The notes beneath the pieces are model-generated. The model made no database searches and had not been told where the DNA came from. It saw only the letters and a program-made list of their open reading frames with translations. A program made the position numbers and the translations under genes. A stretch of DNA of 64,000 nucleotides from Candidatus Woesearchaeota archaeon (GTDB taxonomy: Archaea > Nanobdellota > Nanobdellia > Pacearchaeales > GW2011-AR1): assembly GCA_964372205.1 (NCBI GenBank), contig CAYJQB010000001.1, positions 226,967 to 290,966 on the forward strand. The letters are read 5' to 3'. Every line of letters starts with the position of its first letter. Within the stretch, counting starts at the first letter, position 1. Positions 2,854-60,529 of the stretch are shown piece after piece.

Positions 2854-3459
2854 TTAAATATTTGCGCTTTGATTGGCACCAAGTCTTCTTCCTGTTTTCA
2901 TATTCTCAATTATAATTCCAACTCTCTTCATCCTTGTTTCAGGCCTCTTCGCATGAAGTAGCCATCTGAAATACATTCTCTTTTGAGATGGGGGAAGTTT
3001 TTCAAAATTCTCCTTGGCTGTTTTATTCTTCTTTTTTTCAAGCTCCGCCTTCAAATCCTCTGGCATATCAGGATTCTTAGGTATTCCATGATCATGCGGT
3101 TTCTTAGTCAAACCGAGTTCAAACATCTCTTTTCCAAAATCAGACATTTTCCCTTGAGAAATCATCTCTCTAGCTCTTGCAAAAGTGTTATCGCTCCATC
3201 TGCTTGTCTTTTTTCTCTTAACAAATGTAACTCCATACTTTTCATCATCTATTCTTTTCAACGTTGTATCAATCCATCCAAAACATATTGCCTCATTCAT
3301 AGCAATACTTTGATTGAACATTCCTTTTCCAGTATGTTTTTTGTATCTTATTAGCAGAACTCTATCTTCTTTCAAGTGATTCTTTTCAAGCCATGCTCTC
3401 CACTGCTCAACATTTTCACAAGTGATTTGTTTTATTTTCTCTTTATTATTCATCATCAT
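2854..3459 (-). CDS. YdeI/OmpD-associated (OmdA-domain) family protein
   Basis: W..WL..NH at N-terminus, CFGWID motif, C-terminal LPPSQKRMYFRWLLHAKRPETRMKRV typical of the YdeI/OmdA family. Confidence 0.55.
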   Translation of the reverse strand: MMMNNKEKIKQITCENVEQWRAWLEKNHLKEDRVLLIRYKKHTGKGMFNQSIAMNEAICFGWIDTTLKRIDDEKYGVTFVKRKKTSRWSDNTFARAREMISQGKMSDFGKEMFELGLTKKPHDHGIPKNPDMPEDLKAELEKKKNKTAKENFEKLPPSQKRMYFRWLLHAKRPETRMKRVGIIIENMKTGRRLGANQSANI

Positions 3460-7444: not shown

Positions 7445-10400
7445 TTATATCTCTTCTATTGAAAACCCCAGAATTTTTTTAAAATTATCTATAAGTTTTG
7501 CCCATCCGTTACTCTCTTCTTCTGGAGAATAATTCAAGTCTCCTACAGGCAAGCCTCCACCCCCTAAACACGGATATGCACCCACATACCCTCCATCGTC
7601 AGCCATGGAGCAAGGATCTACAGGAGGTTCTCCAATAGGACTGGATTCTGTAAGATGATAATCTCCATTTGCTTCATCAATGAATACCAATGACATGTCA
7701 AGTTCCTGGCTTTCAAAATAGTTGCTAAGATTATAAGTCCTCTGTTGCCAATGATCTGTAACAAACAAGTTATGGTGACGATCATAATTTGGACCAACAG
7801 CACCCCCACCAAAAATATTATTTTTTACAACTACATTCTGGAAGTTGTCTCCGAATCCGATAGAACCAACAAGAGAATTACGTTCAATAGTGATTCCATT
7901 AGGGCTCCTTCCTTCATAGGACGAGTTCCAGCCAGATATGCCTACATTTCCGTGATTATACCTGAAGGTTATTCGTTCAGATTCTGAAACAGTCATATCA
8001 GTTGCATTAATAACAGTATTATTTTCTACTAATATGTCTTGGCTATTCTGGTATGTGGATATGGAATTGCCGTGCTGTCCAGCGCTATCATGAATATAGT
8101 TATCAGAGATTATTCCATCTTTAGCAAATGCAAAGTATATACCAGTTCTTCCCACACGAGTAATTTCATTACTTCTAACTAAAAATCCCGTACCCTGAAC
8201 TGACGAATTTCTTCCCCCTATACTTATTCCTCTTCCAATCAAAGTATCATGGATATAATTGTTTTCAATCAAGAGGTTATCTGCGAGGAGAATGCCAATA
8301 GAGAATCCTTTGATATGCCTTAGCTCATTATTTCGAATCTCAATATTTTGAATATCTGAATTGCTACCTTTATCGCGATTAACGATAGGCGTTCCCACAT
8401 ATCCTTCAATAGTAAATCCATCAATGATAATGTTGTTTTTTCCATTTAGCTCAAAAGCAATATTTTTACCAAATTCCTGTATGTTGTTTACAGAAGAAAG
8501 AGGCCAAAGATAGATTCTTGACATATCATAATCAACATAAAACTCTCCAGGCTCGTCCATAATCGATGGATGATTCCAAAGAGAATAAGTGTCTTTATCC
8601 TGTTCAAGAGAGGTATCTAAAGATTCGAAAGTAACTATGTGTAAATTAGGGTCATAAGTAAGAATCTCACGATAAAAGATGTTATTATTTCCTGAGTGGA
8701 TAATTAAGTAGCTTCCAACCCAGTAATTTGAATCAGGGTGAGTAAACACTGCAGCATCCGTGATAGAAGTTTGAGTAATTTCGGATGGACTGTACCATCC
8801 ATCAGGCTTATTAAAATATAATTTGTCTACAGGTGTTGGATCTTGTGCAACACTAAGCAAGGTGCTCTCCTCAAATAGCACAACTTCTTCTATTGGAGGA
8901 AGATTCGATTTATTAACATAATATACATTCTGCCAATTCGGATTATCTTGGCATTCTGCTTGCGAGGCACAGAGTTGCCAACCTGGAAGACTACTAAATC
9001 CAGAGACGACTGGTTTTTCCCCAGGGTACGCCTTAAATGTTATTGGTTGCCCCGGAAGCCCTTCATTATTAAACCAGACCGAAATATCTTCATCTCGCGC
9101 ATCGTAATGATAACCAATTTCATCGTAGACTCCTTCTCTGACTAAAACTGTATCTCTAGGCTGTATAACATCTGCTGCATGCTGTAGTGTTTTCCAAGGT
9201 TGTGAAATTGTTCCAGGATTTCCATCATTTCCGGAGGTGCTGACATAATAAGTAGCTTCTTCATCAGTGCTATTCTCTGTATTGTCATCGGAAGATAAGC
9301 ATTCAAGATCAAGCCCATAATCAATAAGTCCATCTCCATCATTGTCTTCAAAGTCTCTGCATTCAGGAGGATTTATTCTATACTTATTCCACATAGCTTC
9401 TGCAAATCCACTGATGTATCCAGCGCCGCCAGTATTGTTGTCTTGTCCATGTCTATATGGAAATCTTCCAATTCCATCAGAAGGGTCACTATCCATTATA
9501 CATGAGCTGAGATTGTTTGGATTTTCTCCATAAGTCACTTTATAGAACTCAGGTATCAGATTCTCACATCTGACTCCTCCACAATCATCATTAGGAGATG
9601 GTCCATGATCTACTCCACAAAGTTGGCCATTATAATCTCCTCCATTACATTGTCCCCCAGCACAATATCCATTAGGACAGGCGTTCACGTTCGCGTAAGT
9701 GCATACATTTCCATTATTGCTTCCTCCAACACAATATCCCATCACCGGAGCACATATATCTGGTTGTGCCCACGCCCCAAGATTAACCCATCTGTTGACA
9801 TAATCCTCAAACAATTGATTATTCCAGACATTTTTTGCTTCAGGCAATAATTGATTTATAAGAACAGAGCCTTTCCATATCAAGCTGTTTATTCCTTTCT
9901 GATAACTTGTTCCTGGAACAACTCCTCCATCAATATACCCATAAGGATCGGAAAGAGTTCTGCTTGCAGAATCAGTAGCAAGAGCTCTCCAATACCAAGA
10001 GGTTCCCTCTCCAAACAAAACTGTCCCAACTCCACTATTTGCCTGTGGATAGAAAGTCAAAAATCCATCTTCTTGGAAGGTCATCTTAGGAGCATTCATA
10101 ACGTCATCTTTCCAGGTTTGATTGTTGAAAAGTAATGCCGTGAATATTATAGGAGTCTTTCTCCCACTTCCATGTCCCCCATTTGGATACCAAACTCCAC
10201 CGTTATCCATTATGTGATAAAGGTCTATTCCCATCTGCATGTAATGCACTAATTGAGGAAACTTATCTTCGTAAGTGTCATTTAACATGAATCTTAATGC
10301 AGCGTCCCCATTATCTATAGCTACTCTACCACCATAACCTCTGTAACTCCCACTCCTATTGTAATTATCATAAGGTCTTACCTGTTCACCCGGATAACTT

Positions 10401-19868: not shown

Positions 19869-19945
19869 ATAACTGGGCTCACATACTTTGTCCGAAATTT
19901 AAATATATGGAAATATTTATAAACTATGAGTATTCATGACTAATC

Positions 19946-20188
19946 ATGGATACAACAACAATAACTATAGACTTGAGAGTTAAGAAGATGCTTGATAGTT
20001 TGAAGCGTGCTAGAAGAGAGTCTTATAATGATGTTCTTAGTAGAGTTCTCCCAAGTGCATCAACTGATGATGTAGAGTCATTACAAGAGACTGCTGCGAT
20101 ACTGTCAGATTCTGATACAATGGCGAGGCTAGCAAAAAGTATGGGCGATTTTAAACATGGCCGTTTAATAGATTTTAAAGATGTGTAA
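19946..20188 (+). CDS. ribbon-helix-helix antitoxin (CopG/ParD-like)
   Basis: TITIDLRVKKMLDSLKRARRESYNDVLSRVL beta-strand plus two-helix RHH pattern; stop adjoins the RelE start. Confidence 0.5.
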   Translation: MDTTTITIDLRVKKMLDSLKRARRESYNDVLSRVLPSASTDDVESLQETAAILSDSDTMARLAKSMGDFKHGRLIDFKDV

Positions 20189-20446
20189 ATGGACAAACAA
20201 ATCAAGTTCACTCTAGAAAGCAAAGAAGCACTACACTCTTTACATATAGATATTCAAAAATCGGTAAAGTTTGCATTGAAGAAACTTGCCAACGGAGAGA
20301 TTCAGGGAAAACCTCTTACTGAAAGCCTCACAGGATTTAGCAGTCTTAGAGTCGGGAACCATAGAGTAATTTACAGCGTTGAAAAAGATGTGATTATTGT
20401 TTTTGATGTCGGACATCGTAAGAATATTTACAATAAAAAATTGTAA
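20189..20446 (+). CDS. relE: RelE/ParE family toxin
   Basis: LRVGNHRVIYSVEKDVIIVFDVGHRKNIY matches the RelE C-terminal consensus (RVG.YRIIY...I..I.HRK..Y). Confidence 0.75.
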   Translation: MDKQIKFTLESKEALHSLHIDIQKSVKFALKKLANGEIQGKPLTESLTGFSSLRVGNHRVIYSVEKDVIIVFDVGHRKNIYNKKL

Positions 20447-20462
20447 TGGCCCCGAGGGGATT
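20447..20462. repeat. 16-nt direct duplicate of the tRNA-Lys 3' end (att-like scar)
   Basis: tggccccgaggggatt identical to 20531-20546 (3' acceptor plus start of T-stem of tRNA-Lys). Confidence 0.6.
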
Positions 20463-20530
20463 CCTGAAGCTTCGTGAGAAGCGAGGGCTAGCGATTTCAA
20501 TCGCTCTGTGTTCAAATCCCTGAATATAAA

Positions 20531-20674
20531 TGGCCCCGAGGGGATTTGAACCCCCGACACCTGGATTTCTCCTTTCTGGCAATCTTAGTTTCTTTGATTT
20601 CCAGGGAAACTTTCTTTTCTAAAGAAAGTAAGCCTTAAGAGTCCAGTGCTCTAACCAGGCTGAGCTACGAGGCC
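20531..20674 (-). tRNA. tRNA-Lys (anticodon CTT) with 69-nt intron at canonical 37/38 position
   Basis: Hand-folded cloverleaf: acceptor GGCCTCG/CGGGGCC, D-stem GCTC/GAGC, anticodon stem CTGGA/TCCAG with loop CTCTTAA, T-arm GGGGG-TTCAAAT-CCCCT, discriminator A; anticodon 3' strand displaced by a 69-nt insert; BRE/TATA (tttaaaaa) ~28 nt upstream. Confidence 0.8.
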
Positions 20675-33223: not shown

Positions 33224-33562
33224 CTATTTCTTATTTTTTCTAGATTGTTTTTCGAGTATGCCTCTTACAGAAGGACTTACTTGTTTATCTTTCCTATGAA
33301 TACATCCAATCCAGCAACAAGGTCTTCGCATCCCTTCCTTGAGTTCACTAACAACTCTCCCAACATGCTCTTTTCTAGTATTATCTTGCTTTACAAAAGT
33401 AGTCCAACATATCCACTCGTTTCTTGCGAGAGGTGTAAGACCTTCCCACTTCTCCAGAGCCACTTTATCAGAACTAAGAGCTTTTCGTAAATCCTCTGGT
33501 AAATTATGCACAGTTCCTCCAGAGATTTCTTTGTTTGTCATACGATATATCATTCTTTCCAA
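33224..33562 (-). CDS. OmdA-domain (YdeI/OmpD-associated) protein
   Basis: LTPLARNEWICWTTFVKQDNTRKEHVGRVVSELKEG resembles the C-terminal domain of the 2854-3459 protein. Confidence 0.5.
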   Translation of the reverse strand: MERMIYRMTNKEISGGTVHNLPEDLRKALSSDKVALEKWEGLTPLARNEWICWTTFVKQDNTRKEHVGRVVSELKEGMRRPCCWIGCIHRKDKQVSPSVRGILEKQSRKNKK

Positions 33563-33585
33563 GATTTATAAGTTTTCCATCAAAA

Positions 33586-33700
33586 ATGCAAAAGTGTATT
33601 ACGCCCGGACCAAACACAGCACACTTTTGCATAATCACTGGGACTCGTATTGATTAGCTTATTTCTTTCTAGTGGCTAGGATTTTTAAGCATTCTCGAGA
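33586..33700. repeat. intergenic repeat copy A: 12-bp perfect hairpin enclosing a 14-nt copy of the tRNA-Ser 3' end, plus motif2 (gggactcgtattgattagctt) and motif3 (ggatttttaagcattctcgaga)
   Basis: atgcaaaagtgt / acacttttgcat inverted repeat; ttacgcccggacca identical to 38774-38787; motifs shared with copies B and C. Confidence 0.7.
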
Positions 33701-33768
33701 TGGAAGTGATATGTGATTATTTCACCTCAATCGGAAGATTTATATATAAGTAAGATATTCTTACCGGT

Positions 33769-34035
33769 ATGAAAATAGAGCTAACAAAAATAAGCAGTAA
33801 GGGACAAGTAGTCATACCTTTAGACGTGAGAAGAAAGCTTGCCCTTAAGGATGGAGAGACACTTGCAGTTTCTACTGAAGATGACTTAATTGTATTGAAA
33901 AAGGTAAAGAACCCTATGGAAGAAGATGATTTGCGTACTCTTAAGGAAATAAAAGAAGCTTGGAAAGAGATTGCACAAGGGAAATATAGAAAAATGAACA
34001 AAGAAGATTTTCTCAAAGAAATTGAGACCTGGTAA
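33769..34035 (+). CDS. AbrB/MazE/SpoVT-family antitoxin
   Basis: SKGQVVIPLDVRRKLALKDGETL swapped-hairpin motif. Confidence 0.7.
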   Translation: MKIELTKISSKGQVVIPLDVRRKLALKDGETLAVSTEDDLIVLKKVKNPMEEDDLRTLKEIKEAWKEIAQGKYRKMNKEDFLKEIETW

Positions 34036-34281
34036 ATGGTAGAATATATCTTTACAGAAAAATTTGAGAAGGAATTTAAAAAAGCAGACAATTCTATTAA
34101 AGAAAAAGCACGAAAACAAATAAAAAAGATACTTGAAGACCCAGAAACAGGAAAGCCATTAAGATATGACCTAAAAGGCGAGAGAACAGTCTATGTCAAA
34201 CCATTTAGAATAATATATTCGTTCTCGAATAACACAATTTACTTCCTACGATTTGAACATCGCAGCGAAGTTTATGATTAA
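34036..34281 (+). CDS. RelE/ParE family toxin
   Basis: YRIIYSFSNNTIYFLRFEHRSEVY C-terminal RelE consensus; start abuts antitoxin stop. Confidence 0.7.
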   Translation: MVEYIFTEKFEKEFKKADNSIKEKARKQIKKILEDPETGKPLRYDLKGERTVYVKPFRIIYSFSNNTIYFLRFEHRSEVYD

Positions 34282-34293
34282 TAACTAATCCGT

Positions 34294-34352
34294 GGGACTC
34301 TGATCGATTAGCTTCTTTTCTCTGATCTCTAGAATTTTTAAGGATTGTCGAC
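34294..34352. repeat. intergenic repeat copy B (motif2 plus motif3 only)
   Basis: gggactctgatcgattagctt ... gaatttttaaggattgtcgac, about 75% identical to the corresponding part of copy A. Confidence 0.6.
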
Positions 34353-34367
34353 TACTTCCAAGAAGAG

Positions 34368-34955
34368 TCACTCAAATCTCACATTTATTACGTAAGCCTC
34401 TCCGAGAAACAAATCATAACCCTCCCTATTGAGGGTTTTTTCAAATTCTTTTATTTTTGTCTTTGGAGGAGAGTCGCAACGATCTAATCTCCTTTTTAAG
34501 GCCAACACTCCTCCTCGGTCTGCCCTTTGCTCATTATCCGAAATCGGAACGTTTGTGAATTCAAGATTAACCTTGCTTGAAGCATTATCCAGAACTTCTA
34601 ACATTGCTTTTTCTCCGACCAGAGCTTCTAGAGCGTGCGCCTCTTCATGACCTCTAACAAATTCTGTGTGAAGTCCATCCATTCCAGAGCGGTAGGAAGT
34701 TCTTAAGGTAAGGCTTATTAGCTCTTCATTATTCCCGGCTACTACGCGTGTGGCTATACATAAACCAGTTGTTTGCATGTCTGATAAAATATTGTCTATA
34801 GTTTTCAATACAGGTTTTAAAGAAGGTCTCTCTGCTTTCATTCTATAGAGAAAGTAATTTCCAACAGCTCCATCATCATAATAACGTACATCAACACCTC
34901 CAGGTACAGGGACTTCAATTCCTAATCTTTCAAGATAAATTGTGTTTGTCATCAT
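34368..34955 (-). CDS. hypothetical HExxH-motif protein (possible small metallopeptidase, ImmA/IrrE-like?)
   Basis: RGHEEAHALE... with a Glu ~20 residues downstream; local GC visibly higher than surroundings. Confidence 0.35.
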   Translation of the reverse strand: MMTNTIYLERLGIEVPVPGGVDVRYYDDGAVGNYFLYRMKAERPSLKPVLKTIDNILSDMQTTGLCIATRVVAGNNEELISLTLRTSYRSGMDGLHTEFVRGHEEAHALEALVGEKAMLEVLDNASSKVNLEFTNVPISDNEQRADRGGVLALKRRLDRCDSPPKTKIKEFEKTLNREGYDLFLGEAYVINVRFE

Positions 34956-35041
34956 TATTCTGTTCTTATCAAGAGGACGAGTTTAATATTCATATTTAAA
35001 ACTTTCTATGTTGTTACTATTATTAAGAAACAAAAATGGTA

Positions 35042-35151
35042 TTACGCCCAGACCAAACCGAACCCTATCATGCGATATTTTAGGGACGGTTTTATGTACA
35101 AGTTATATACAAGATTTGCTAGACTTTTAGGATTTTTAAGGATTGTCGAGA
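35042..35151. repeat. intergenic repeat copy C: degenerate copy of tRNA-Ser 3' end (ttacgcccagacca, one mismatch) plus motif3 ggatttttaaggattgtcgaga
   Basis: Aligned by eye with copy A and with the tRNA-Ser 3' end. Confidence 0.65.
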
Positions 35152-35164
35152 TAGAATTGATGGA

Positions 35165-35923
35165 TTAAATATACCCTTTCCATTCTTCCTCACAAGGAAT
35201 TTCAAATTTCTCAAACGGGGCCTTAGTCTTCAATGGGAAGAATAAAGACTGGTTTATGTATGCTCTTGAATCCAAATGTGCTAGCAAATTTGCTATAAAG
35301 TAAGCGAAACTTAGATTTGGGATCTCATATCCTTTAAGTGAAAATGGTTTATGTTCCCACCAAACATGCAGAAATTTTTCATCTCCTAAGGCGATGTTGC
35401 TAACTTTTTTAAAAATTGAACAATCAGTTATGTTAAAATAATCTTTTAAAGAGTCTCGAATTGTATTGATAGTGAGAAAGCATTCATAACAAAACAAGCC
35501 ATTGAATATTTTATCATTTTGTGCAACAGTTTCTATTTTTTTGCCATTTTGTTCGCATTTCTTAATAGTTTCTTTGAGATCTGAACCATTCCTAATTGAG
35601 GTCTTAACTTCGATTATAGCTCTGACTATATTCGCAGGAACAATTACAAAATCTCCTTCTGAGAATAAAACAGGTGAACGATCATCGTAGATTATTAGAT
35701 CTATTTGGTTGGTTAATTCTTTTTTTGGATTTATTACAAATCCTGTTCCAATTGAGAGATTTTTTGGCAAAAATCGAGAGATAACATTCTTTAATACAGC
35801 CTCTTTATATCTCCCATCTTCTCCCCAGTGAGCCTCTCCTATCAGACTCCTTACTCTATCCTTAACAGCAATTAATTCTTTGTTTATTGATTCATAAAAA
35901 TTTTTGAAATCTTGTTCTACCAT
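35165..35923 (-). CDS. predicted PD-(D/E)xK-fold nuclease-like protein
   Basis: QIDLIIYDD ... FVIVPANIVRAIIEVKTS gives the D...(D/E)xK arrangement with flanking hydrophobic strands; 252 aa; 7-nt overlap with upstream gene. Confidence 0.45.
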   Translation of the reverse strand: MVEQDFKNFYESINKELIAVKDRVRSLIGEAHWGEDGRYKEAVLKNVISRFLPKNLSIGTGFVINPKKELTNQIDLIIYDDRSPVLFSEGDFVIVPANIVRAIIEVKTSIRNGSDLKETIKKCEQNGKKIETVAQNDKIFNGLFCYECFLTINTIRDSLKDYFNITDCSIFKKVSNIALGDEKFLHVWWEHKPFSLKGYEIPNLSFAYFIANLLAHLDSRAYINQSLFFPLKTKAPFEKFEIPCEEEWKGYI

Positions 35924-36597
35924 TTTTCGTATTGTAAGTTTTCTATATTTACATCCATTTTTTCTTTTTTAATTATCATATCCCATACTATGTACTTTAC
36001 ATCTTTTACCTTAAAATCATAATTATATGGAATGATTATTTTTTGATTTGGAAGAATTTTTCCTTTTTGGACAGGAGCTGTATATAAAACAGTATCCCCT
36101 ATAGTGAAGATAACATCCAAGTTCACATATTCACTATAATCATCTCCTATATTTGATAACACTATCTCTCCCGAAGACGTATGAATTGTGTCATCTAATG
36201 TTTCCTCTAAAGAATTAAACAATGGAATGGATTTAGAAACACAAGTCCCAAATGTGCTTGAGCCACAACCCAATAACTGAGCTGAATAGGCGGCCAGAAT
36301 TATAGAATCTTTTGTTATGGTGATTGCATGATAATCTCCTCTTTCATTGATCTTGTAATATTCAATTTTTGCGCTATTAACTTCCAAAGGAGATGGATCT
36401 TCTCCATCTAAATATCTATCTCCATCAGTGTTTGGGTTTGTTAAGTTTGTTCCCAAATTGAGTTCTTCTTCATCACTTAATCCATCTTTGTCAGTGTCCA
36501 TTGGTTTGCTCACTAGAAAAATTATAGCTAACAAGGCTACCAAGATAATTACAATTAAGCATAGAATCCAGTGAAACAAATCACCCTTTCTATTCAT
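35917..36597 (-). CDS. membrane-anchored protein with thrombospondin-type-3-like Ca-binding repeats (likely start MNRKGDLFHW)
   Basis: TM helix ILCLIVIILVALLAIIFLV followed by DTDKDGLSDEEE and NPNTDGDRYLDGED acidic D-x-D-x-D-G repeats; ATGA start/stop overlap with the upstream small peptide gene. Confidence 0.5.
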   Translation of the reverse strand: MNRKGDLFHWILCLIVIILVALLAIIFLVSKPMDTDKDGLSDEEELNLGTNLTNPNTDGDRYLDGEDPSPLEVNSAKIEYYKINERGDYHAITITKDSIILAAYSAQLLGCGSSTFGTCVSKSIPLFNSLEETLDDTIHTSSGEIVLSNIGDDYSEYVNLDVIFTIGDTVLYTAPVQKGKILPNQKIIIPYNYDFKVKDVKYIVWDMIIKKEKMDVNIENLQYEKW

Positions 36598-36758
36598 TTT
36601 CCATATGCTCCAAAAACAACGGCTAGTACAATCAGTATTCCCATTATTCCGCCAAATAACCAACCAAACACACTTCCAAAAGCAGTGATTATAGCTGTTG
36701 CGGCTCCAGTGGACAAAACTATTATGGCCATTATTATTGTTATTATCAATTTTTCCAT
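36594..36758 (-). CDS. 54-aa Gly-rich double-TM peptide (GlsB/YeaQ/YmgE-like transglycosylase-associated family?)
   Basis: Hand-found ORF MEKLIITIIMAIIVLSTGAATAIITAFGSVFGWLFGGIMGILIVLAVVFGAYGK with GGAGGT Shine-Dalgarno-like sequence 8 nt upstream; translationally coupled to the next gene. Confidence 0.45.
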   Translation of the reverse strand: MEKLIITIIMAIIVLSTGAATAIITAFGSVFGWLFGGIMGILIVLAVVFGAYGK

Positions 36759-36940
36759 TTTACCTTACCTCCATTTTATTTCTAGTGAATAAGAAGTAGC
36801 CTCAGAGGATACCCTCCAGGGTTACCTCTTTTTCTTTCAAAACGTGGTTTGAGAGATATTTATATTTTTCTACTGGTTCTTTAACTAACTTGTATAAATT
36901 TTGTACATAAAAACAGCCCACGAGATGTTTATAACCAGAT

Positions 36941-38617
36941 CTAATTTTCTTGATAAATATTTTCAAAAGAATTGTTTGGATTTCTTCTCACCAAACGAAT
37001 ATAATCTGCTTTTATTTTTCTGGACATATTCTGAACAAATTGAGAATTTTTAAAGATGTTTTTATAGTCCAAAAAACCATCATTTTGTTCAATATATTCT
37101 TCAAAGTCGATATTTATATCTGGAGTAATTAGCTCCCAAACCTTCTTAATAGTTGCAACAAATTTGGCTTTGTTTGTTGTTATACACTCTAAAGGATCAT
37201 CAATAATTTGCTTTCCAAGGTTGTCTTCTCTCAATATCTCTGCTAATACGTGCGAGAAGAAAAAGATGGAAAGCCCGTAGTCTCTTAAATGTTCATTATT
37301 TAACAAACCTGCTTCGTTTTTAACAAGGTCATATACGACCTTCCCAAGATATATTTTATTCGCAGAGATATTTCTTGAGAAAATATGATTATATTCTTCT
37401 CCAAATAATTTTTGTTTAAGATGGGTATTATGGGGTTTACCTAAATAGAAGGCCATAATTACCTGAGCAGCAAAATCTTTTTCAATTATCTCAGCTTCCG
37501 AGTTCAATTCCTCTCCTCGCTTCCTTCTGTAAAGAATATTTCCTTCAAATGTACGTTCAAACTCAGTCTGAATGGTTTTTTGCACAGAATCGTTTGATTT
37601 TAAATCCTTCAAACTTATGGAGTTTTGATTGTTAGTATAGAAAGTTATTTTCTTTACAAGAGGAGAAGTAGGGTTCAATTTTATTATTTTAACAAGGATA
37701 AAAAGATTATTGCTCAATGAATCTCTATTTTCAAAAAATGTTAACATTGATTGACATCCGTTGATTAAGGAATATCCTCCAAGAGTAATTTTGTGATTTG
37801 TTAGGTCCTCAGAGAAGTCTCTACAAATTATTGTAATGCCATTATGATACATAAAAAAATTGTTATGTTCTGAAGTATCCAAGATAGTTTTTTTGATGGC
37901 TTTGTTTACCCTGGTATTCCCAACACCATATCTTACATTTTTATAAAAAAGAGTCCTATCTTGAATACCTTCAAGTTTGACTAACTCCTTTGCTTTAATT
38001 GCATAGGTCCTAACAAGAGTACCATCAGGGAGGTTATATTCTATTTTTGAGGGATTTTGGATTGAAAGGTCTTTTTGAGGGAAGTTTGTTTCTTGGTCTG
38101 CAAAATAAGTATACTTGTCAAATAAAATATTAGAGTCATAACCCTCAAAATCAGTTATTGTGTTTATATAATCTTTCGCAGGAGAATTAAATATTTTGTT
38201 TGTAGTAAAAATTAGAACTTTTTTGTAATGAGTCTTTTCAGACAAGTTATTTCTTTCTACAAGAGATTTTAGCTCTCTATTTGCATCACTGTTGAGTAGA
38301 TTATTTATAGAATCACTACCTTCAAACCAGATCCTTGTTCCAACAAAATTTCTTATGTCTCTATCTCCTTGATCTTGGTTGTTGTTAGGGCTGAATTTTG
38401 ATTGAAATAAGTAAATTGTTTCTTCATCATCATCTACATATAATCCATCAATTCCTTTATCATTTCTATGATCGCACACACTATCTATTGCTTCTAAAGG
38501 ATCAAGCCTAAAAAAATTTTCAAGAAACCATATCAAAAATGCAGAAGACTCTTCTCTACCCGAACTATATTCAGAGACCTCATCCCTCATCCGATTATAG
38601 AATTCAGATTGATTCAT
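36941..38617 (-). CDS. AIPR-family abortive-infection-like protein
   Basis: 558 aa; N-terminal FLIWFLENFFRLDPLEAIDSVCDHRNDKGIDGLYVDDDEETIYLFQSKFS resembles the Mrr-like DG-IDG...Q-K N-terminal nuclease module of AIPR proteins. Confidence 0.55.
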   Translation of the reverse strand: MNQSEFYNRMRDEVSEYSSGREESSAFLIWFLENFFRLDPLEAIDSVCDHRNDKGIDGLYVDDDEETIYLFQSKFSPNNNQDQGDRDIRNFVGTRIWFEGSDSINNLLNSDANRELKSLVERNNLSEKTHYKKVLIFTTNKIFNSPAKDYINTITDFEGYDSNILFDKYTYFADQETNFPQKDLSIQNPSKIEYNLPDGTLVRTYAIKAKELVKLEGIQDRTLFYKNVRYGVGNTRVNKAIKKTILDTSEHNNFFMYHNGITIICRDFSEDLTNHKITLGGYSLINGCQSMLTFFENRDSLSNNLFILVKIIKLNPTSPLVKKITFYTNNQNSISLKDLKSNDSVQKTIQTEFERTFEGNILYRRKRGEELNSEAEIIEKDFAAQVIMAFYLGKPHNTHLKQKLFGEEYNHIFSRNISANKIYLGKVVYDLVKNEAGLLNNEHLRDYGLSIFFFSHVLAEILREDNLGKQIIDDPLECITTNKAKFVATIKKVWELITPDINIDFEEYIEQNDGFLDYKNIFKNSQFVQNMSRKIKADYIRLVRRNPNNSFENIYQEN

Positions 38618-38776
38618 AAATACAAATCAGTAATTGAACTTTAAATGAATTTCTATAATTGACTTTTTAGCTCTTTTACCAGCAAATTTCTTTTGTCATT
38701 TATGGAAAATTATCAAGAAATAACTTGTATAAAACTTGTATATACTCCGTCCCATGATTATCGCACAATAGGGTTA

Positions 38777-38861
38777 CGCCCGGACCAGGATTTGAACCTG
38801 GGAATCGCTTGCGCGAAACGGGATTAGCAATCCCGCGCAGTAACCGCTGTGCCATCCGGGC
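38777..38861 (-). tRNA. tRNA-Ser (anticodon GCT), long variable arm
   Basis: Hand-folded: acceptor GCCCGGA/TCCGGGC, anticodon stem CGGGA/TCCCG with loop TTGCTAA, long variable arm, T-arm CCAGG-TTCAAAT-CCTGG, discriminator G. Confidence 0.85.
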
Positions 38862-38907
38862 ATAAATTGATTAGAAAAAGATTGCTTTTAAGTCTTATTA
38901 TAGATTC

Positions 38908-42805: not shown

Positions 42806-43489
42806 ATGTACATAATAGGGGTGGACGATGCCGGAAGAGGTCCTTTAATTGGTCCAATGGTTTTAGCAGGGGTTTTGATAAAAACAGCAGACCAGGATTT
42901 CTTGAAAGAATCAGGAGTAAAAGACTCCAAAATGCTCACTCAGGAAAAACGTCTTGCTCTCGATGAATTAATCAAATCAAAATCCCTTGGATATAAAGCA
43001 GTTCTAGTTCCTCCAATCGAAATCGATGATGCAGTTCTCTCAGGAAGAAACTTAAACAATCTGGAAGCAATAAAATGTGCTGAAGTAATAGACTCCTTGA
43101 ATACAGAAGACATGCATGATAAAGAGATAAAGGTTATTGTAGACTGTCCATCTCCAAACACAAAAGCTTGGCAAGCTGTTCTCATCTCACATATAAAATA
43201 TTCTAAAAATCTAAAGATAAAATGTGAGCATAAAGCAGATGCGAATCATCCGTGTGTTTCAGCAGCATCTGTTTTGGCAAAATTAGCAAGAGAAGAAGCT
43301 GTAGCAGAAATCAAATCTCAATATGGGAATATAGGTTCAGGTTATCTAACAGACCCAGTAACTCAAGCATTCATAAAAGAAAAAAGCGCAGAACTTGAAA
43401 ACTCAGGCATATTCAGAAAATCATGGTCTACTTGGACTAATCTTGTCGCAGAAAAACAACAGAAGAAACTATTCGGGATATTCTTCTAG
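42806..43489 (+). CDS. rnhB: ribonuclease HII
   Basis: IIGVDDAGRGPLIGPMV N-terminal catalytic motif and DxxS...D region of RNase HII. Confidence 0.8.
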   Translation: MYIIGVDDAGRGPLIGPMVLAGVLIKTADQDFLKESGVKDSKMLTQEKRLALDELIKSKSLGYKAVLVPPIEIDDAVLSGRNLNNLEAIKCAEVIDSLNTEDMHDKEIKVIVDCPSPNTKAWQAVLISHIKYSKNLKIKCEHKADANHPCVSAASVLAKLAREEAVAEIKSQYGNIGSGYLTDPVTQAFIKEKSAELENSGIFRKSWSTWTNLVAEKQQKKLFGIFF

Positions 43490-44341
43490 TTTTTTCATCG
43501 CTAGCTTTATTGATTTGGAATTAGACGAAAATACTTTCCAAGGATTTTTCTCAAGATATCTTGAAATGCTTTTTATTGTATATTTATCAAATTTAAAATC
43601 TGGTTTAAGCTCATTCCAAGAGAGAGGCATTGCGATTGTTCCAGGCTCTTTTGCTCTTAATGAATAAGGCACGACTTTTAGTTGAGCTCTTGCGTTTCTC
43701 AAATAATCAATGAAAACTCTCCCTTTTCTCTTATTTATTCTCTGTTCTGTTGTGAACTTGTCAGGATTTATTTTTTCAATTATCTCAGCTATTCTTCTCG
43801 AAAACTTCTTTGTTTCATTAAACGTGACGTCTCTCTTTATAGGCACAATTATGTGAAAGCCCTTCTGACCGGTTGATAACAAATAACTCTTTAATTCTAG
43901 GGAGTCAAGAATCTTTTTTACTGCATTCGTTGCCTGAACTGCATCAGAAAGTTTTTTCTCATTCGGAGGATCAATGTCCCATACAACAACCTCCGGATAA
44001 TCAATTTTGTCAATCCTTGACAGCCAATGATGAAAAATCAGAGTATCTTGATTAGCAAGGTATACTAAAGTGTCTTTATCATTGCATACAACATATTCAG
44101 TTCCATTGATTTTCTTTGTTTTAATCCACTTAGGAAAATACCCCCCAGCATTTTTCTGATAGAAACACATTTTTCCAGCACCTTCAACACATCTCTCAAG
44201 AGCAATAGGTCTATCTTTCACATAAGGAAGAATTTTGTTTGAAACTTTAATGTAATAATTAATTACATCTTTTTTGGTTATCTTTGATTTAGGATAGATA
44301 ATCTTGTCAGGATGAGTGATTTCTACTTTTCCGATTTTCAT
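43469..44341 (-). CDS. LigD-type polymerase/primase (PrimPol) domain protein, stand-alone
   Basis: ITHPDKIIYP...ITKKDVINYY...DRPIALERC...FYQK motifs as in the NHEJ LigD Pol domain. Confidence 0.65.
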   Translation of the reverse strand: MKIGKVEITHPDKIIYPKSKITKKDVINYYIKVSNKILPYVKDRPIALERCVEGAGKMCFYQKNAGGYFPKWIKTKKINGTEYVVCNDKDTLVYLANQDTLIFHHWLSRIDKIDYPEVVVWDIDPPNEKKLSDAVQATNAVKKILDSLELKSYLLSTGQKGFHIIVPIKRDVTFNETKKFSRRIAEIIEKINPDKFTTEQRINKRKGRVFIDYLRNARAQLKVVPYSLRAKEPGTIAMPLSWNELKPDFKFDKYTIKSISRYLEKNPWKVFSSNSKSIKLAMKKLEEYPE

Positions 44342-44913
44342 TTTTTCTTCTTTCCTCTTGCAATCTGCTCAAGAGTTTTTCCAGACTTTACAGACTTATT
44401 TTCTCCAGCAATCTTCTTATTTGCAAAATCATCTTTCATTTTGAATAACAGCCAGTTTTTGTTTTGTCCTTTAAATCTTATTAGTGCATAAGCTCCATTC
44501 AGTTTCTTCCCTTCAAGAAACACTTCTATCATCCCCATTTCATAAGACTTCTTCATGTCAATAGGAGTTTCTTTTTCTCCTTTGAGGTTTATGAATTTAC
44601 CTTTGTCCCAGAGCATAACAGTTCCAGCTCCGTAATTTCCTTCAGGAATAATGCCTTCAAAGTTTCCATAGTCCATTGGATGTTCCTCTGTTTCAACAGC
44701 GAGCCGTTTATCGGTAGGATTATTAGAAATTCCCTTAGGCACAGCCCAGGATTTTAGCGCTCCTTCTATTTCTAATCTAAAATCATAATGTAACTGTGAA
44801 GCATCATGTTTCTGAACAACAAATACTCCTTTCTTCCCAGAGCTTTTCTTCACTTTCCATTTCGGCTCAGGAGTCTTATCGAATTTCCTCTTTTTTTCAT
44901 ATACTGTTGGCAT
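44338..44913 (-). CDS. LigD-type 3'-phosphoesterase domain protein, stand-alone
   Basis: FVVQKHDASQLHYDFRLE...LKSWAVPKG...EHPMDYGNFEGIIPEGNYGAGTVMLWD matches LigD PE domain motifs; 4-nt overlap with Pol gene. Confidence 0.7.
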   Translation of the reverse strand: MPTVYEKKRKFDKTPEPKWKVKKSSGKKGVFVVQKHDASQLHYDFRLEIEGALKSWAVPKGISNNPTDKRLAVETEEHPMDYGNFEGIIPEGNYGAGTVMLWDKGKFINLKGEKETPIDMKKSYEMGMIEVFLEGKKLNGAYALIRFKGQNKNWLLFKMKDDFANKKIAGENKSVKSGKTLEQIARGKKKK

Positions 44914-49296: not shown

Positions 49297-49548
49297 ATGA
49301 ACAATATAACTACTATAAAACTTAATAAAAAAACGAAGGGCAGATTAGAAAACCTTCGCACTCATAAAAGGGAGACTTACGATGAAGTCATACAAAAAAT
49401 GCTCAACATACTCAACATTTGCAAGGCAAGCCCGGAGCAGGCAAGGATAAGATTGAGAAATATAGACAGAATTAGGATAATGAGCAAACAAAATAAGTCT
49501 AGCTCTGTAAAATCTTCAGACCCTCAACACAATCCTCAACAAGAGTAG
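49297..49548 (+). CDS. hypothetical small protein (doubtful)
   Basis: Overlaps 3' end of the convergent nfo gene by 50 nt. Confidence 0.2.
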   Translation: MNNITTIKLNKKTKGRLENLRTHKRETYDEVIQKMLNILNICKASPEQARIRLRNIDRIRIMSKQNKSSSVKSSDPQHNPQQE

Positions 49549-59629: not shown

Positions 59630-60529
59630 TTAAAGATTACTATGGGCTTGAGGGGGAATAAAGTGCTTCCTCCTCCCTTTTCCATTTTTGATATTCCAGT
59701 ACTTTCTGAACTCGCAAAGTGCCCCCTCGATATTAGTTATAGAAAGATATGGATAATTTGAAAATGCTTTCTCATACGCAATGCTTTCCCATTTTTCTGA
59801 AAGAGAATCTTTTTGCATCTCATATAGCTCATACAGCCTATGCTTAACTTCTTTATTGCTTAATTTCTTTCCATAGATTATTTCTAATCCCCACTTTGCT
59901 CCAGGCCCAACGTTCACAAAGTCGTTATCATTCCAGCCCTGCCTAAAGAATCCTAAGTAAGTCAAATCCGTCCATATTTCACACGCAAGGAACGGACCAA
60001 CCATCGGAATTCTTTTTAATATCTCGAAAGACTCTTCAGGAGTGCTACTTTGGTCTATTCTTTTTATTATTTCACTAGAATTGTTGGAAAGAATTTTCAA
60101 ATTGTTTAGGACACTAACATGTTTATCTTCACCTTTTTTCCCTGAAATAATGTAAGCATTGTTGAACAAAGGTTTACCCAATTTTTTCATCCTATCGAAC
60201 TTTTTTAGGATTTCAGCTTTAACTCCATCGTCAAACTTCTTAAACGGCTCTATCTCCAATTCCTCATACAATCCGTGTCTGTTAAAAAATCTGTAAAATA
60301 CAACATTGAGAAGAATTGATTTCCTGTCACTCAATTTGTTTAGTTTTTTCAATAAATAAATGGTGCACTTGTCAAGCTCCCTATACATATTGATTACTTT
60401 ATATTTCTGTAGAATTTTATCCTCAGTCCAAGGGGAACGTTCTTTTAGAACAAATCTCTTATGCCAAATTAAATGTCTTCTGTAAATGAAATCAAAAAAC
60501 TCTTGTTTTAAATTTTCTCGCACAGGCAT
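59630..60529 (-). CDS. 299-aa protein resembling the alpha-glutamyl/putrescinyl thymine pyrophosphorylase (aGPT-Pplase) / DNA base hypermodification family; assignment tentative
   Basis: N-terminal FFDFIYRRHLIWHKRF...PWTEDKILQKYKVINMYRELDKCT resembles the conserved FxxERHxI...PWTxDxIL..Y.F.NVYRExD block of that family (from memory); start codon overlaps the nusA stop. Confidence 0.4.
   Translation of the reverse strand: MPVRENLKQEFFDFIYRRHLIWHKRFVLKERSPWTEDKILQKYKVINMYRELDKCTIYLLKKLNKLSDRKSILLNVVFYRFFNRHGLYEELEIEPFKKFDDGVKAEILKKFDRMKKLGKPLFNNAYIISGKKGEDKHVSVLNNLKILSNNSSEIIKRIDQSSTPEESFEILKRIPMVGPFLACEIWTDLTYLGFFRQGWNDNDFVNVGPGAKWGLEIIYGKKLSNKEVKHRLYELYEMQKDSLSEKWESIAYEKAFSNYPYLSITNIEGALCEFRKYWNIKNGKGRRKHFIPPQAHSNL

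What the first reader, a model, noticed from the sequence alone, without database searches (positions are those of the whole stretch)
33586..35151. Three copies of a modular ~100-170-nt intergenic repeat bracketing the TA cassette and the HExxH gene
Besides the tRNA-derived core there are two further conserved blocks. One is gggactcNNatYgattagctt (copies A and B). The other is ggatttttaagSattStcgaSa (copies A, B and C), always in the same order and spacing (core to motif3 about 80-90 nt). The copies sit in three different transcriptional contexts: a divergent promoter region, a convergent 3' region, and a tail-to-head region. So they are unlikely to be an ordinary shared promoter or terminator. 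The AbrB-RelE pair is precisely bracketed by copies A and B, like a mini-cassette. Copy A carries a perfect 12-bp stem (atgcaaaagtgt / acacttttgcat) whose 23-nt loop holds the tRNA-3'-end core. These look like recombination (att-arm) sites or a MITE-like element family.
Basis: seen in the sequence. Interest (0 to 1): 0.65.

Follow-up and report, generated by a model that had tools for sequence, protein, structure and literature searches.

The report
tRNA-Ser attachment-site repeats bounding small cassettes
The three repeats are the junction scars (attachment sites plus their flanking "arms") of small toxin-antitoxin and defence gene cassettes that were inserted one after another into the 3' end of a tRNA-Ser gene of a tiny DPANN archaeon. 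This is a known way of building genomic islands, seen here in a little-studied group and in unusually miniature, integrase-less form.

Summary
All three motifs are real, on the + strand, and absent from the rest of the 64 kb window. The core (TTACGCCCRGACCA) equals the 3' end of tRNA-Ser(GCT) at 38774-38787, in the same orientation. The stretch left of the tRNA is a 53-nt inverted copy of the stretch right of copy C.

So 33.6-38.8 kb is a tandem array anchored on the tRNA. It reads: proximal arm-core-distal arm (A) | AbrB-ParE | coreless arm (B) | HExxH | arm-core-arm (C) | nuclease/AbiU genes | arm-core/tRNA.

A profile of the distal arm finds nine copies in five related genomes. They flank seven different cargos and are never dispersed. 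In one relative a 4.65-kb element lies exactly at this 12-nt core and is absent from a 99.98%-identical strain. It carries a Xer-like tyrosine integrase and Orc1/Cdc6.

Best reading: these are attachment-site junctions from site-specific integration and accretion of cassettes resembling cis-mobilizable elements (CIMEs). No array encodes its own recombinase, and none was found for these arms. The MITE, casposon, integron attC, RNA and promoter/terminator readings are not supported.

This is a new member of a known kind, of moderate interest.

The parts
33578..33598 (+). A-type proximal (P) arm, catcaaaaATGCAAAAGTGTa. It contains the left half of the 12-bp perfect inverted repeat.
   Evidence: 94% identical to L038 8433-8467, where the same sequence abuts tRNA-Ser itself. 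Inverted repeat I25.
33599..33612 (+). Core copy A, TTACGCCCGGACCA. This is a direct repeat of the tRNA-Ser 3' end.
   Evidence: Identical to 38774-38787.
33613..33710 (+). A-type distal (P') arm. In order: AAC spacer, right half-site ACACTTTTGCAT (33621-33632), motif 2 (33640-33660), motif 3 (33679-33700).
   Evidence: nhmmer E 1.4e-27.
33769..34281 (+). Cargo 1: AbrB/MazE-type antitoxin (33769-34035) and ParE/RelE toxin (34036-34281).
   Evidence: Pfam PF04014 at 2.4e-9 and PF05016 at 1.3e-11. 92% nt identity to the L038 TA block.
34283..34369 (+). Copy B: a coreless A-type P' arm with motif 2 (34294) and motif 3 (34332). It is followed by the short hairpin GACTACTTCCAAGAAGAGTC, which overlaps the HExxH stop codon.
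   Evidence: nhmmer E 1e-15, matching profile positions 24-102 only. Also coreless in L038 7241-7323.
34368..34955 (-). Cargo 2: a 195-aa HExxH protein, a near-orphan.
   Evidence: No Pfam, NCBIfam or PADLOC hit. Only two homologs. In L035 the same gene (87% nt) lies between C-type arms.
35028..35041 (+). A-type-like P arm, gaaacaaaaatggta, at the proximal end of the TA-HExxH unit.
   Evidence: Repeat D1. The L038 equivalent, cacaaaatggtaga, lies before the core at 7797.
35042..35055 (+). Core copy C, TTACGCCCAGACCA. It has A where the tRNA has G; L029 shows the same variant.
35056..35161 (+). C-type P' arm. In order: AACCG spacer, 53-nt inverted-repeat partner (35061-35113) with tandem TRTACAAG units, motif 3 (35130-35151).
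   Evidence: nhmmer E 1.1e-22. 93.5% identity to L035 and 84% to L026.
35165..38617 (-). Cargo 3: DUF6602 / PD-DExK NucC-like nuclease (35165-35923), TSP3-repeat membrane protein (35917-36663) and AIPR/AbiU (36941-38617).
   Evidence: Pfam. PADLOC: PD_DExK 9.8e-28, AbiU 1.7e-38.
38724..38775 (+). C-type P arm, the inverted partner of 35061-35113.
   Evidence: 79% over 53 nt, E 5e-5. 84.6% identity to the flank of tRNA-Ser(CGA) in L026.
38776..38862 (-). tRNA-Ser(GCT), the anchor (attB side). Its last 11 nt plus 1-3 downstream nt form the core (38774-38787 on the + strand).
   Evidence: ARAGORN. Rfam 56.3 bits. Sequence.

Best explanation
The repeats are attachment-site junctions of a tandem array of small integrated cassettes anchored on tRNA-Ser(GCT).

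**Junction anatomy.** Each junction has three parts.
- A proximal arm of 20-55 nt.
- A 12-14-nt core identical to the tRNA's 3' end.
- A distal arm of about 100-120 nt. It contains an AAC spacer, a half-site inverted relative to the proximal arm, a GGGAC block, a subtype-specific middle and motif 3.

**Mechanism (inferred).**
1. A circular unit carrying proximal arm-core-distal arm recombines with the core in the tRNA, catalysed by a tyrosine (Xer-like) recombinase. This rebuilds the tRNA and leaves a displaced core copy at the far end.
2. Later units insert at the tRNA-proximal core. The older junctions are pushed outward. This is accretion.

**How the window's copies fit.**
- Copy A is the junction of an older proximal arm with the TA-HExxH unit.
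- Copy C is the junction of that unit with the nuclease/AbiU unit.
- Copy B is an internal distal arm that has lost its core.

**Status of the units.** The units carry no recombinase. They are cis-mobilizable (CIME-like) cassettes or decayed relics, and any movement needs an integrase supplied in trans.

**Shown versus inferred.**
- Shown: the repeat anatomy, the identity of the core with the tRNA, the inverted arms, the same arms around other cargos elsewhere, and integrase-mediated insertion at the same core in a relative.
- Inferred: that a tyrosine recombinase made these particular junctions, the order of insertion, the roles of the arm motifs, and any present-day mobility.
For: **In the window**
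- There are three direct copies of the 12-nt core and no others on that strand. The nearest other matches have 2 mismatches and lie in unrelated places.
- An intact tRNA-Ser sits at one end.
- The island GC is 0.327, against 0.355-0.358 in the flanks.
- The cargo is TA and defence genes.
- The C..tRNA unit has 53-nt inverted arms.

**In related genomes**
- An nhmmer profile of the distal arm hits only array junctions, with E from 1e-10 to 1e-27. These are window x3, L035 x2, L038 x2, L028, and L026/L027.
- L038 is the syntenic locus of a Pacearchaeota MAG. DoxX, GNAT, tRNA-Met, RNase HII and SMC lie to the right at 67-81% nt identity.
- The L038 array differs from the window's. It reads: degenerate core | the same TA plus coreless B arm (92%) | 127-aa gene | arm-core-arm | HicAB | arm-core/tRNA.
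- L026 carries the C-type arms around an MNT-HEPN pair at a different gene, tRNA-Ser(CGA).
- L035 carries the HExxH gene between C-type arms instead of A-type arms.

**An integrase at the same core**
- L027 equals L026 at 99.98% except for a 4.65-kb insertion flanked by ACGCCCGGACCAG.
- The insertion encodes a PF00589 integrase (1.4e-21; closest NCBIfam model is XerA, below its cut-off), Orc1/Cdc6 and a wHTH protein.
- An element with an 87%-identical integrase sits in tRNA-Ser(GGA), with ttaACGCCCAGACCA at both ends.

**Match to known biology**
- Tandem arrays of tyrosine-recombinase elements are described in archaea (PMC6563490).
- Integrase-less units that retain their att sites (CIMEs) are described in bacteria (PMC5704250, PMC3146451).
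Against: - No recombinase gene lies in the window. Forty ORFs were scanned. None lies in the arrays of L026, L035 or L038 either.
- The one integrase family seen at this core (Family I) has arms unrelated to the A- and C-type arms. The cognate enzyme is therefore unknown.
- No presence/absence polymorphism of the window-type cassettes was seen among near-identical strains (L001-L005, L036; L037-L042).
- No autonomous element with these arms was found in IMG/VR, phage or plasmid collections.
- A 53-nt inverted repeat flanking a direct repeat is also the signature of a transposon.
- Copy B lacks a core.
- The left arm of copy A implies a further unit to the left, for which no distal junction was found.
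Confidence: 0.72

Rival explanations
1. An active, integron-like cassette system. The mini-units (0.66-3.7 kb) are purpose-built cassettes that never encoded an integrase. A recombinase encoded elsewhere in the genome, or on a helper plasmid, routinely excises, shuffles and re-inserts them at the tRNA-Ser core. Motif 3 would then be a functional arm site or an outward-facing promoter.
For: - Four independent arrays contain only tiny units that keep both arms but no integrase.
- Seven different cargos lie between the same arms.
- The same HExxH gene lies between A-type arms in the window and C-type arms in L035.
- Homology between arrays starts or stops at motif 3: the L038 match ends at window 34350 and the L035 match starts at 34331.
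- Int-Orc1/Cdc6 plasmid-like elements using the same core co-occur with such an array in L027.
Against: - No polymorphism of the mini-units was seen among near-identical strains.
- No circular junction was observed.
- The arms of the only integrase elements found are unrelated to these arms.
- Arm copies are 50-77% identical, so no recent movement is detectable.
- Homologous recombination between conserved arms could produce the same mosaics.
Confidence: 0.3
2. A non-autonomous casposon-like or other TIR transposon. The 12-14-nt direct repeats would be target-site duplications made by staggered cleavage at the tRNA 3' end. The inverted arms would be terminal inverted repeats recognised by a transposase or casposase in trans.
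For: - The C..tRNA unit has 53-nt inverted ends next to 12-14-nt direct repeats.
- Casposons have TIRs, 14-15-bp TSDs, insert at tRNA 3' ends and form tandem arrays (PMC5137440, PMC6563490).
Against: - No Cas1, PolB or DDE gene lies in the window or in any array.
- The tips are asymmetric. A conserved AAC plus 5-8-nt spacer separates the core from the inverted repeat on the distal side only. On the proximal side the repeat abuts the core.
- The A. boonei TSD overlaps the tRNA by only 5 bp (PMC5137440). Here 11 nt of the repeat lie inside the tRNA.
- A tyrosine-integrase element uses exactly this core.
Confidence: 0.06
3. A MITE or generic dispersed intergenic repeat of this genome, unrelated to the tRNA.
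For: The repeat is modular, intergenic and short. Copy A has a hairpin.
Against: - There are no copies outside the array in the 64 kb window or in related loci.
- All copies share one orientation and one order relative to tRNA-Ser.
- Copies are divergent, at 57-67% identity within the genome.
- The core equals the tRNA 3' end.
Confidence: 0.03
4. Regulatory DNA or a small RNA: a shared promoter, terminator or operator, or an sRNA gene, duplicated along with its neighbouring genes.
For: - Motif 3 contains an A/T-rich TATA-like stretch with a BRE-like CGACAA on the minus strand.
- In B, C, L026 and L035 it lies 13-15 nt beyond the stop codon of a minus-strand gene.
- The T5 run could terminate the TA operon in B.
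Against: - The contexts differ: divergent, convergent and tail-to-head.
- There is no Rfam match even at E 1.
- B and C fold no better than shuffles, z +1.1 and -1.1.
- The promoter/terminator scan is at background level.
- This reading does not explain the tRNA-derived core or the inverted arm at the tRNA.
Confidence: 0.08

Closest known systems
Tandem accretion arrays and cis-mobilizable elements (CIMEs) at tRNA/tmRNA genes. Examples are ICESt1/ICESt3-related islands of Streptococcus and the ssrA genomic islands of Dehalococcoides (PMC5704250, PMC3146451).
   Same: - Several units lie in tandem downstream of one RNA gene.
- Each unit is bounded by a direct repeat of the gene's 3' end.
- Conserved sequence lies next to the repeats.
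- Some units lack any integration module but keep their att sites.
- New elements insert at the gene-proximal site.
   Different: - The host is archaeal (DPANN/Pacearchaeota).
- The units are far smaller, 0.66-3.7 kb against tens of kb.
- No parental autonomous element with the same arms was found.
- The arms come in two subtypes that are mixed within arrays.
- Dehalococcoides uses a serine recombinase.
Archaeal tRNA-integrating elements with tyrosine recombinases, and arrays of cryptic integrated elements (PMC6563490). The SSV- and pNOB8-type integrase literature is recalled from memory.
   Same: - Integration into a tRNA 3' end.
- Short att sites (the thaumarchaeal median is 17 bp).
- Re-use of one site, giving arrays.
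- Plasmid-like Int plus Orc1/Cdc6 elements, as in L027 and L029.
   Different: - The window's units have no integrase.
- No ORF reads through the core in a conserved frame, so there is no sign of an SSV-type split integrase gene.
- The long distal arm with conserved motif 3 has no described counterpart that I could find.
Integron cassette arrays with attC sites, including those reported in Archaea (PMC9668308).
   Same: An array of small cassettes with one or two genes each, rich in toxin-antitoxin pairs, separated by repeats of about 100 nt. The same gene is found in different cassette frames.
   Different: - No IntI, attI or Pc lies next to the array.
- The repeats are not individually palindromic. 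Only copy A folds.
- There are no R/L boxes.
- The array is anchored on a tRNA core.
- Genes lie in both orientations.
Casposons, family 2 (PMC5137440, PMC4779613).
   Same: Insertion at tRNA 3' ends, direct repeats of about 14-15 bp, inverted ends and tandem insertions.
   Different: - No Cas1 or PolB.
- There is an asymmetric spacer between repeat and inverted arm.
- The repeat lies mostly inside the tRNA.
- An integrase element uses the same core.

Membership tests
tRNA-targeting integrative element / att sites of a tyrosine recombinase | Direct repeats identical to the 3' end of an intact tRNA gene, in the same orientation, bounding the inserted DNA | tested here: met
   TTACGCCCRGACCA occurs at 33599, 35042 and 38774. 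tRNA-Ser(GCT) is at 38776-38862.
tRNA-targeting integrative element / att sites of a tyrosine recombinase | Integrase gene inside the element, usually next to the tRNA-proximal att site | tested here: not met
   No PF00589 hit among 40 window ORFs. The feature is met only in relatives L027 and L029, whose Family I elements use the same core but have different arms.
tRNA-targeting integrative element / att sites of a tyrosine recombinase | Occupied versus empty site between close relatives, with the breakpoint at the core | tested here: inconclusive
   Met for the Family I element: L026 versus L027, 99.98% identical flanks, breakpoint in ACGCCCGGACCAG. For the window's own units only between-species array differences were seen (window versus L038). 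No within-population polymorphism was found.
tRNA-targeting integrative element / att sites of a tyrosine recombinase | Recombination at the core catalysed by the integrase | not testable with these tools
   Needs in vitro or in vivo recombination assays, or junction reads.
Cis-mobilizable element (CIME) in an accretion array | Retains both att sites but lacks integration and transfer genes | tested here: met
   The unit 35042-38787 has a core plus arms at both ends and no recombinase. The unit 33599-35055 is the same.
Cis-mobilizable element (CIME) in an accretion array | Derived from, and mobilised by, a related autonomous element with the same att specificity | tested here: inconclusive
   An autonomous element with the same core exists (L027, L029), but its arms are unrelated. 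No autonomous element with A- or C-type arms was found.
Casposon | Cas1-family casposase and family B DNA polymerase | tested here: not met
   Neither was found in the window or in any array.
Casposon | TIRs directly abutting a 14-15-bp target-site duplication | tested here: not met
   The direct repeat is 12-14 nt. The inverted repeat abuts it on the tRNA side, but on the distal side it is separated by a conserved 5-8-nt AAC spacer.
MITE | Many dispersed, similar, non-coding copies with TIRs and short TSDs | tested here: not met
   Copies occur only in the tRNA-Ser array, share one orientation, are 57-67% identical and enclose genes. The whole genome could not be searched.
Integron (attC cassette array) | intI gene with attI and Pc next to the array | tested here: not met
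   No tyrosine recombinase lies in the 64 kb window.
Integron (attC cassette array) | Each repeat is an imperfect palindrome that folds as a hairpin | tested here: not met
   Only copy A folds (z -4.2). Copies B and C give z +1.1 and -1.1.
Known RNA family (Rfam) | Covariance-model match | tested here: not met
   No match at E up to 1 in 33400-35300.

The most novel reading that the evidence does not exclude
DPANN (Pacearchaeota-like) archaea may keep a tRNA-Ser-anchored cassette platform that works like an integron but is built from ordinary att logic. In this reading, mini-cassettes of one to three TA or defence genes carry only a ~110-nt distal arm and a 20-55-nt proximal arm around a 12-nt tRNA core. 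A Xer-like integrase supplied in trans captures, shuffles and exchanges them between species; small Int-Orc1/Cdc6 plasmids that use the same core are a candidate source.
Probability: 0.3. Interest if true: 0.65.

Novelty: new member of a known kind. Interest (0 to 1): 0.45.

Why it matters
DPANN archaea have tiny genomes, and their mobile elements and defence-gene traffic are poorly charted. This locus and its relatives show that a tRNA-Ser 3' end serves as a recurrent landing pad. TA and abortive-infection genes are stacked there and swapped between species, and the boundary sequences are recognisable enough to be searched for. If the cassettes prove to be mobilised in trans, this would be a minimal archaeal analogue of CIME or integron gene capture. 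The 12-nt core plus arms would then be a ready-made substrate for studying an archaeal Xer-like integrase. If they are only decay relics, the finding is an ordinary genomic-island scar, though a cleanly resolved one.

Tried and rejected
**Exact-pattern scans of IMG/VR**
- Motif 3 and the core gave 5 and 11 hits. None shows any flanking similarity, so they are chance hits.
- C-type arm patterns, the A-type proximal arm with core, and motif 2 gave nothing.
- A protein-based scan of IMG/VR with the L027 integrase also gave nothing.

**Other collection searches**
- The GTDB genome scan with the tRNA-Ser 3' half returned four distant DPANN MAGs. None has extra core copies or arms, so they were no use for breakpoints.
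- BLAST of the arms against phage and plasmid collections found no match.

**RNA and regulatory readings**
- RNA gene: no Rfam hit, and no fold beyond copy A.
- A sigma-70 promoter and terminator scan was at background, and it is not designed for archaea.

**Other mechanisms considered**
- SSV-type split integrase: ORFs crossing the core in A and C use different frames and are not conserved. Rejected.
- Simple inverted duplication of the tRNA flank: rejected, because in copy C the core keeps the direct orientation while the flank is inverted.

**Cargo-based searches**
- HExxH protein: only two homologs. The AlphaFold model has pLDDT 42.6, so no fold search was run. The PDB sequence hits are spurious armadillo-repeat matches.
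- ParE homologs of 80-86% identity (P0130, P0132, P0146, P0126; loci L043-L073) lie in other contexts: IS4 transposases, TA islands and other tRNAs. None has the arms.

**Organism name**
Full report

Yes.

- The 20-nt core occurs at 33596-33615 and 35039-35058.
- Motif 2 occurs at 33640 and 34294.
- Motif 3 occurs at 33679, 34332 and 35130.
- All are on the + strand and none is elsewhere in the window. Chance expectations are 0.00-0.02 matches.

Gapped BLAST of 33.0-39.2 kb against the window gives these similarities:

| Pair | Identity | Length | E-value |
|---|---|---|---|
| A~B | 78% | 67 nt | 4e-7 |
| A~C around motif 3 | 88% | 34 nt | 2e-5 |
| A~C around the core | 88% | 26 nt | 0.03 |

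The 12-bp perfect inverted repeat around the core of copy A is present. It folds better than all 200 shuffles (z -4.2).

**2.

The window has a tRNA-Ser(GCT) on the minus strand at 38776-38862 (ARAGORN; Rfam 56 bits). Read on the + strand, its 3' end is TTACGCCCGGACCA at 38774-38787. These are the same 14 nt as the cores of A (33599-33612) and C (35042-35055, with one G-to-A change), in the same orientation. Allowing two mismatches, these are the only three copies of the 12-mer on that strand apart from one unrelated 2-mismatch hit at 49428.

The 53 nt to the right of core C (35061-35113) reappear inverted immediately to the left of the tRNA core (38775-38724). Identity is 79%, E 5e-5. This is not a simple inverted duplication of the tRNA flank, because in copy C the core keeps the direct orientation while the flank is inverted.

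The segment 33613-38773 has 32.7% GC, against 35.5-35.8% on either side. It encodes only accessory genes:

- an AbrB/MazE antitoxin with a ParE/RelE toxin;
- a near-orphan HExxH protein;
- a PD-DExK/NucC-like nuclease (DUF6602);
- a TSP3-repeat membrane protein;
- an AIPR/AbiU protein.

The rest of the window is chromosomal backbone of an archaeon. It includes IleRS, CDC48, EF-1alpha, EF-2, RNA polymerase A', SMC, TrmB and an intron-bearing tRNA. No integrase, Cas1 or transposase was found among 40 ORFs.

**3. Related loci**

A metagenome scan with motif 3 returned L026, L027 and L028.

*L026.* It carries a C-type distal arm ending in a perfect motif 3, then a nucleotidyltransferase plus HEPN-like pair, then a proximal arm. 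That arm is 84.6% identical to window 38724-38801 and abuts a different gene, tRNA-Ser(CGA).

*L027.* It is the same organism (99.98% over 9,967 nt) but has an extra 4.65 kb between that proximal arm/core and the tRNA. The insertion is flanked by ACGCCCGGACCAG. It encodes:

- a 378-aa tyrosine recombinase next to the tRNA (PF00589 at 1.4e-21; closest NCBIfam model is archaeal XerA, below its cut-off);
- an Orc1/Cdc6 protein;
- wHTH proteins.

This is a direct presence/absence polymorphism at exactly the window's core. It also shows accretion in progress, because the older cassette's junction is pushed outward.

The integrase family is large, with 2,565 proteins at E<=1e-10. An element with an 87%-identical integrase sits in tRNA-Ser(GGA), with ttaACGCCCAGACCA at both ends. 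That core carries the same A variant as copy C. The arms of these 'Family I' elements are unrelated to the window's arms.

*L035.* It was found through the only homolog of the HExxH protein (78% identity). In window orientation it reads:

1. a PHD/RelE-like TA pair, 85% identical to window 19941-20430;
2. a degenerate core plus a C-type arm (93.5% identical to 35088-35149);
3. HExxH (87% nt);
4. a C-type proximal arm, then core TTACGTCCTGACCA, then an A-type distal arm (80% identical to copy A).

The same gene therefore lies between C-type arms there and between A-type arms here. Homology to the window begins at the start of motif 3 (34331) and ends 14 nt before core C.

*L038.* It was found through a 98%-identical ParE. 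It is the syntenic locus of a Candidatus Pacearchaeota MAG (GCA_002763075.1). tRNA-Ser(GCT), DoxX, GNAT, tRNA-Met, RNase HII and SMC follow in the same order at 67-90% nt identity. Its array differs from the window's:

1. a degenerate core, CCGCCCAAACCAAAC;
2. the same TA pair plus a coreless B arm (92% over 622 nt; homology ends at window 34350, the end of motif 3);
3. an unrelated 127-aa gene;
4. proximal arm, then core ACGCCAAGACCA, then an A-type distal arm;
5. HicA/HicB;
6. proximal arm, then the core of tRNA-Ser.

The HicAB unit is only 660 nt from core to core. Its proximal arm, catcatgaaaaATGCAAAAGTGTaat, is 94% identical to window 33578-33612. So the left half of copy A's hairpin is a proximal arm of this family. 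Copy A is therefore a proximal arm-core-distal arm junction, as expected between two tandem units of the same type.

*Profile search.* A profile of nine distal arms (nhmmer) hits only these junctions, with E from 1e-10 to 1e-27. It hits nothing else in the window, in four distant DPANN tRNA-Ser loci, in the Family I loci, or in 33 further loci carrying ParE homologs. Arm copies are 47-77% identical over their full length.

**4. Anatomy of a junction**

Reading on the + strand towards the tRNA, a junction contains:

- **Proximal arm.** The A-type ends ...ATGCAAAAGTGTA(T/A)T. The C-type ends ...ATTATCGCAYRATRGRGTT.
- **Core.** ACGCCCRGACCA. This is the last 11 nt of the tRNA (3 nt of T-stem, the 7-nt acceptor strand and the discriminator) plus 1-3 downstream nt.
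- **Distal arm**, made up of:
  - a conserved AAC and 5-8 nt;
  - a half-site inverted relative to the proximal arm, 12 nt in A-type and 53 nt in C-type;
  - a GGGAC block;
  - a subtype-specific middle, TCGTATTGATTAGCTT in A-type or tandem TRTACAAGTT units in C-type;
  - motif 3, TAGGATTTTTAAGGATTGTCGA, which holds two AGNATT hexamers 10 nt apart.

Homology among copies, and between arrays, stops at or just after motif 3. Motif 3 therefore marks the inner edge of the arm.

The spacer is asymmetric. The inverted half-site abuts the core on the proximal side, but sits 8-10 nt away on the distal side. This asymmetry is conserved in all copies.

Family I junctions also have short inverted half-sites flanking the core: ACTTWTAGT ... 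ACTNNWAAGT. One position co-varies between L027 and L029 (by eye).

**5. Mechanism**

*Best-supported.* These are att junctions made by site-specific recombination at the tRNA-Ser core, with successive units accreting at the tRNA-proximal site.

*Shown.*
- The anatomy of the junctions.
- The identity of the core with the tRNA.
- The family of arms around seven different cargos at two tRNA-Ser isoacceptors.
- An integrase element inserted at the same core.

*Inferred.*
- That a tyrosine recombinase made the A- and C-type junctions.
- That the inverted half-sites and motif 3 are protein-binding sites.
- The order of insertion, with A oldest and the nuclease/AbiU unit most recent.

The G/A difference in core C fits an element-borne core with crossover to its left, but a point mutation explains it equally well.

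The units have no recombinase. That matches the definition of cis-mobilizable elements in accretion arrays (PMC5704250; also proposed for integrase-less ssrA islands, PMC3146451). Arrays of tyrosine-recombinase elements are known in archaea (PMC6563490).

Whether the units are still mobile is open. Their uniformly tiny size with both arms kept, and the same gene sitting in two arm frames, argue for trans-mobilised cassettes. The lack of any polymorphism among near-identical strains, and the 50-77% arm identity, argue for old and largely fixed relics.

**6. Rivals**

- **Casposon-like or TIR transposon.** The direct repeat plus inverted ends resemble one. However, there is no Cas1, PolB or DDE gene, and the tips are asymmetric. 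The repeat lies 11 nt inside the tRNA, against 5 bp for A. boonei (PMC5137440), and an integrase element uses the same core.
- **MITE.** There are no dispersed copies, only one orientation, the copies are divergent and the units contain genes.
- **Integron attC.** There is no IntI or attI, and only copy A folds.
- **RNA or regulatory element.** There is no Rfam hit, no shared fold, the contexts are inconsistent and the tRNA core is left unexplained. A promoter embedded in motif 3 (minus strand CGACAAtccTTAAAAAT) remains possible and would be compatible with the att model.

**7. Verdict**

The att-arm interpretation is supported and the MITE alternative is rejected.

This is a new member of a known kind: an accretion array of integrase-less units at a tRNA gene. 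It is notable for its DPANN host, the miniature cassettes and the two shuffled arm subtypes. The cognate recombinase and the role of motif 3 remain unknown.

Noticed in passing
window 20447-20463 and 20531-20547; tRNA 20531-20674(-); TA pair 19946-20446: There is a second att-like scar. The 17-nt ATGGCCCCGAGGGGATT, the 3' end of an intron-containing tRNA-Lys(CTT), is repeated 84 nt away. Rfam finds this tRNA but ARAGORN misses it. A PHD/RelE-like TA pair ends 1 nt before the distal copy. The same TA pair (85% nt) sits next to a tRNA-Ser-type core and C-type arm in L035.
   Followed up: partly
window 34368-34955 (-): The HExxH protein is almost an orphan. It has two homologs among 5.8 billion proteins, no Pfam, NCBIfam or PADLOC hit, and an unusable AlphaFold model (pLDDT 42.6). 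It occurs only as array cargo.
   Followed up: partly
window 59630-60529 (-): A protein with the 5-hmdU DNA kinase helical domain (PF18723, E 2.4e-50). This is a phage-type DNA hypermodification function, sitting in an archaeal chromosome near the RNA polymerase genes.
   Followed up: no
window 43469-44913 (-): The LigD primase-polymerase and LigD 3'-phosphoesterase domains are encoded as two adjacent ORFs, forming an NHEJ-like module in a DPANN genome.
   Followed up: no
L027 9967-14614; L029 7949-12829; L030; L033: A family of roughly 4.7-5 kb Int (Xer-like with a C-terminal zinc ribbon) + Orc1/Cdc6 + wHTH elements. They integrate into tRNA-Ser 3' ends or, in other members, sit beside tRNA-Glu/tRNA-Gln genes (att sites not examined there). 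The integrase family has 2,565 members. Contigs of about 5 kb may be the complete elements.
   Followed up: partly
L053, L054, L064-L069; L059/L060: Close homologs (80-86%) of the window's ParE toxin lie next to IS4-type DDE transposases or inside TA-rich islands (MNT/HepT, MazEF, PIN, UPF0175/DUF3368), without the tRNA-Ser arms. The TA pair travels on several kinds of vehicle.
   Followed up: partly
window 34350-34369; L035 (reverse complement) about 1452-1475: A short hairpin, GACTACTTCCAAGAAGAGTC, directly follows motif 3 in copy B and in both L035 copies. In B it overlaps the HExxH stop codon. Its function is unknown.
   Followed up: no
window 2854-3459 (-) and 33224-33562 (-): There are two OmdA/YdeI-domain paralogs in the window. 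The second starts 33 nt from copy A.
   Followed up: no
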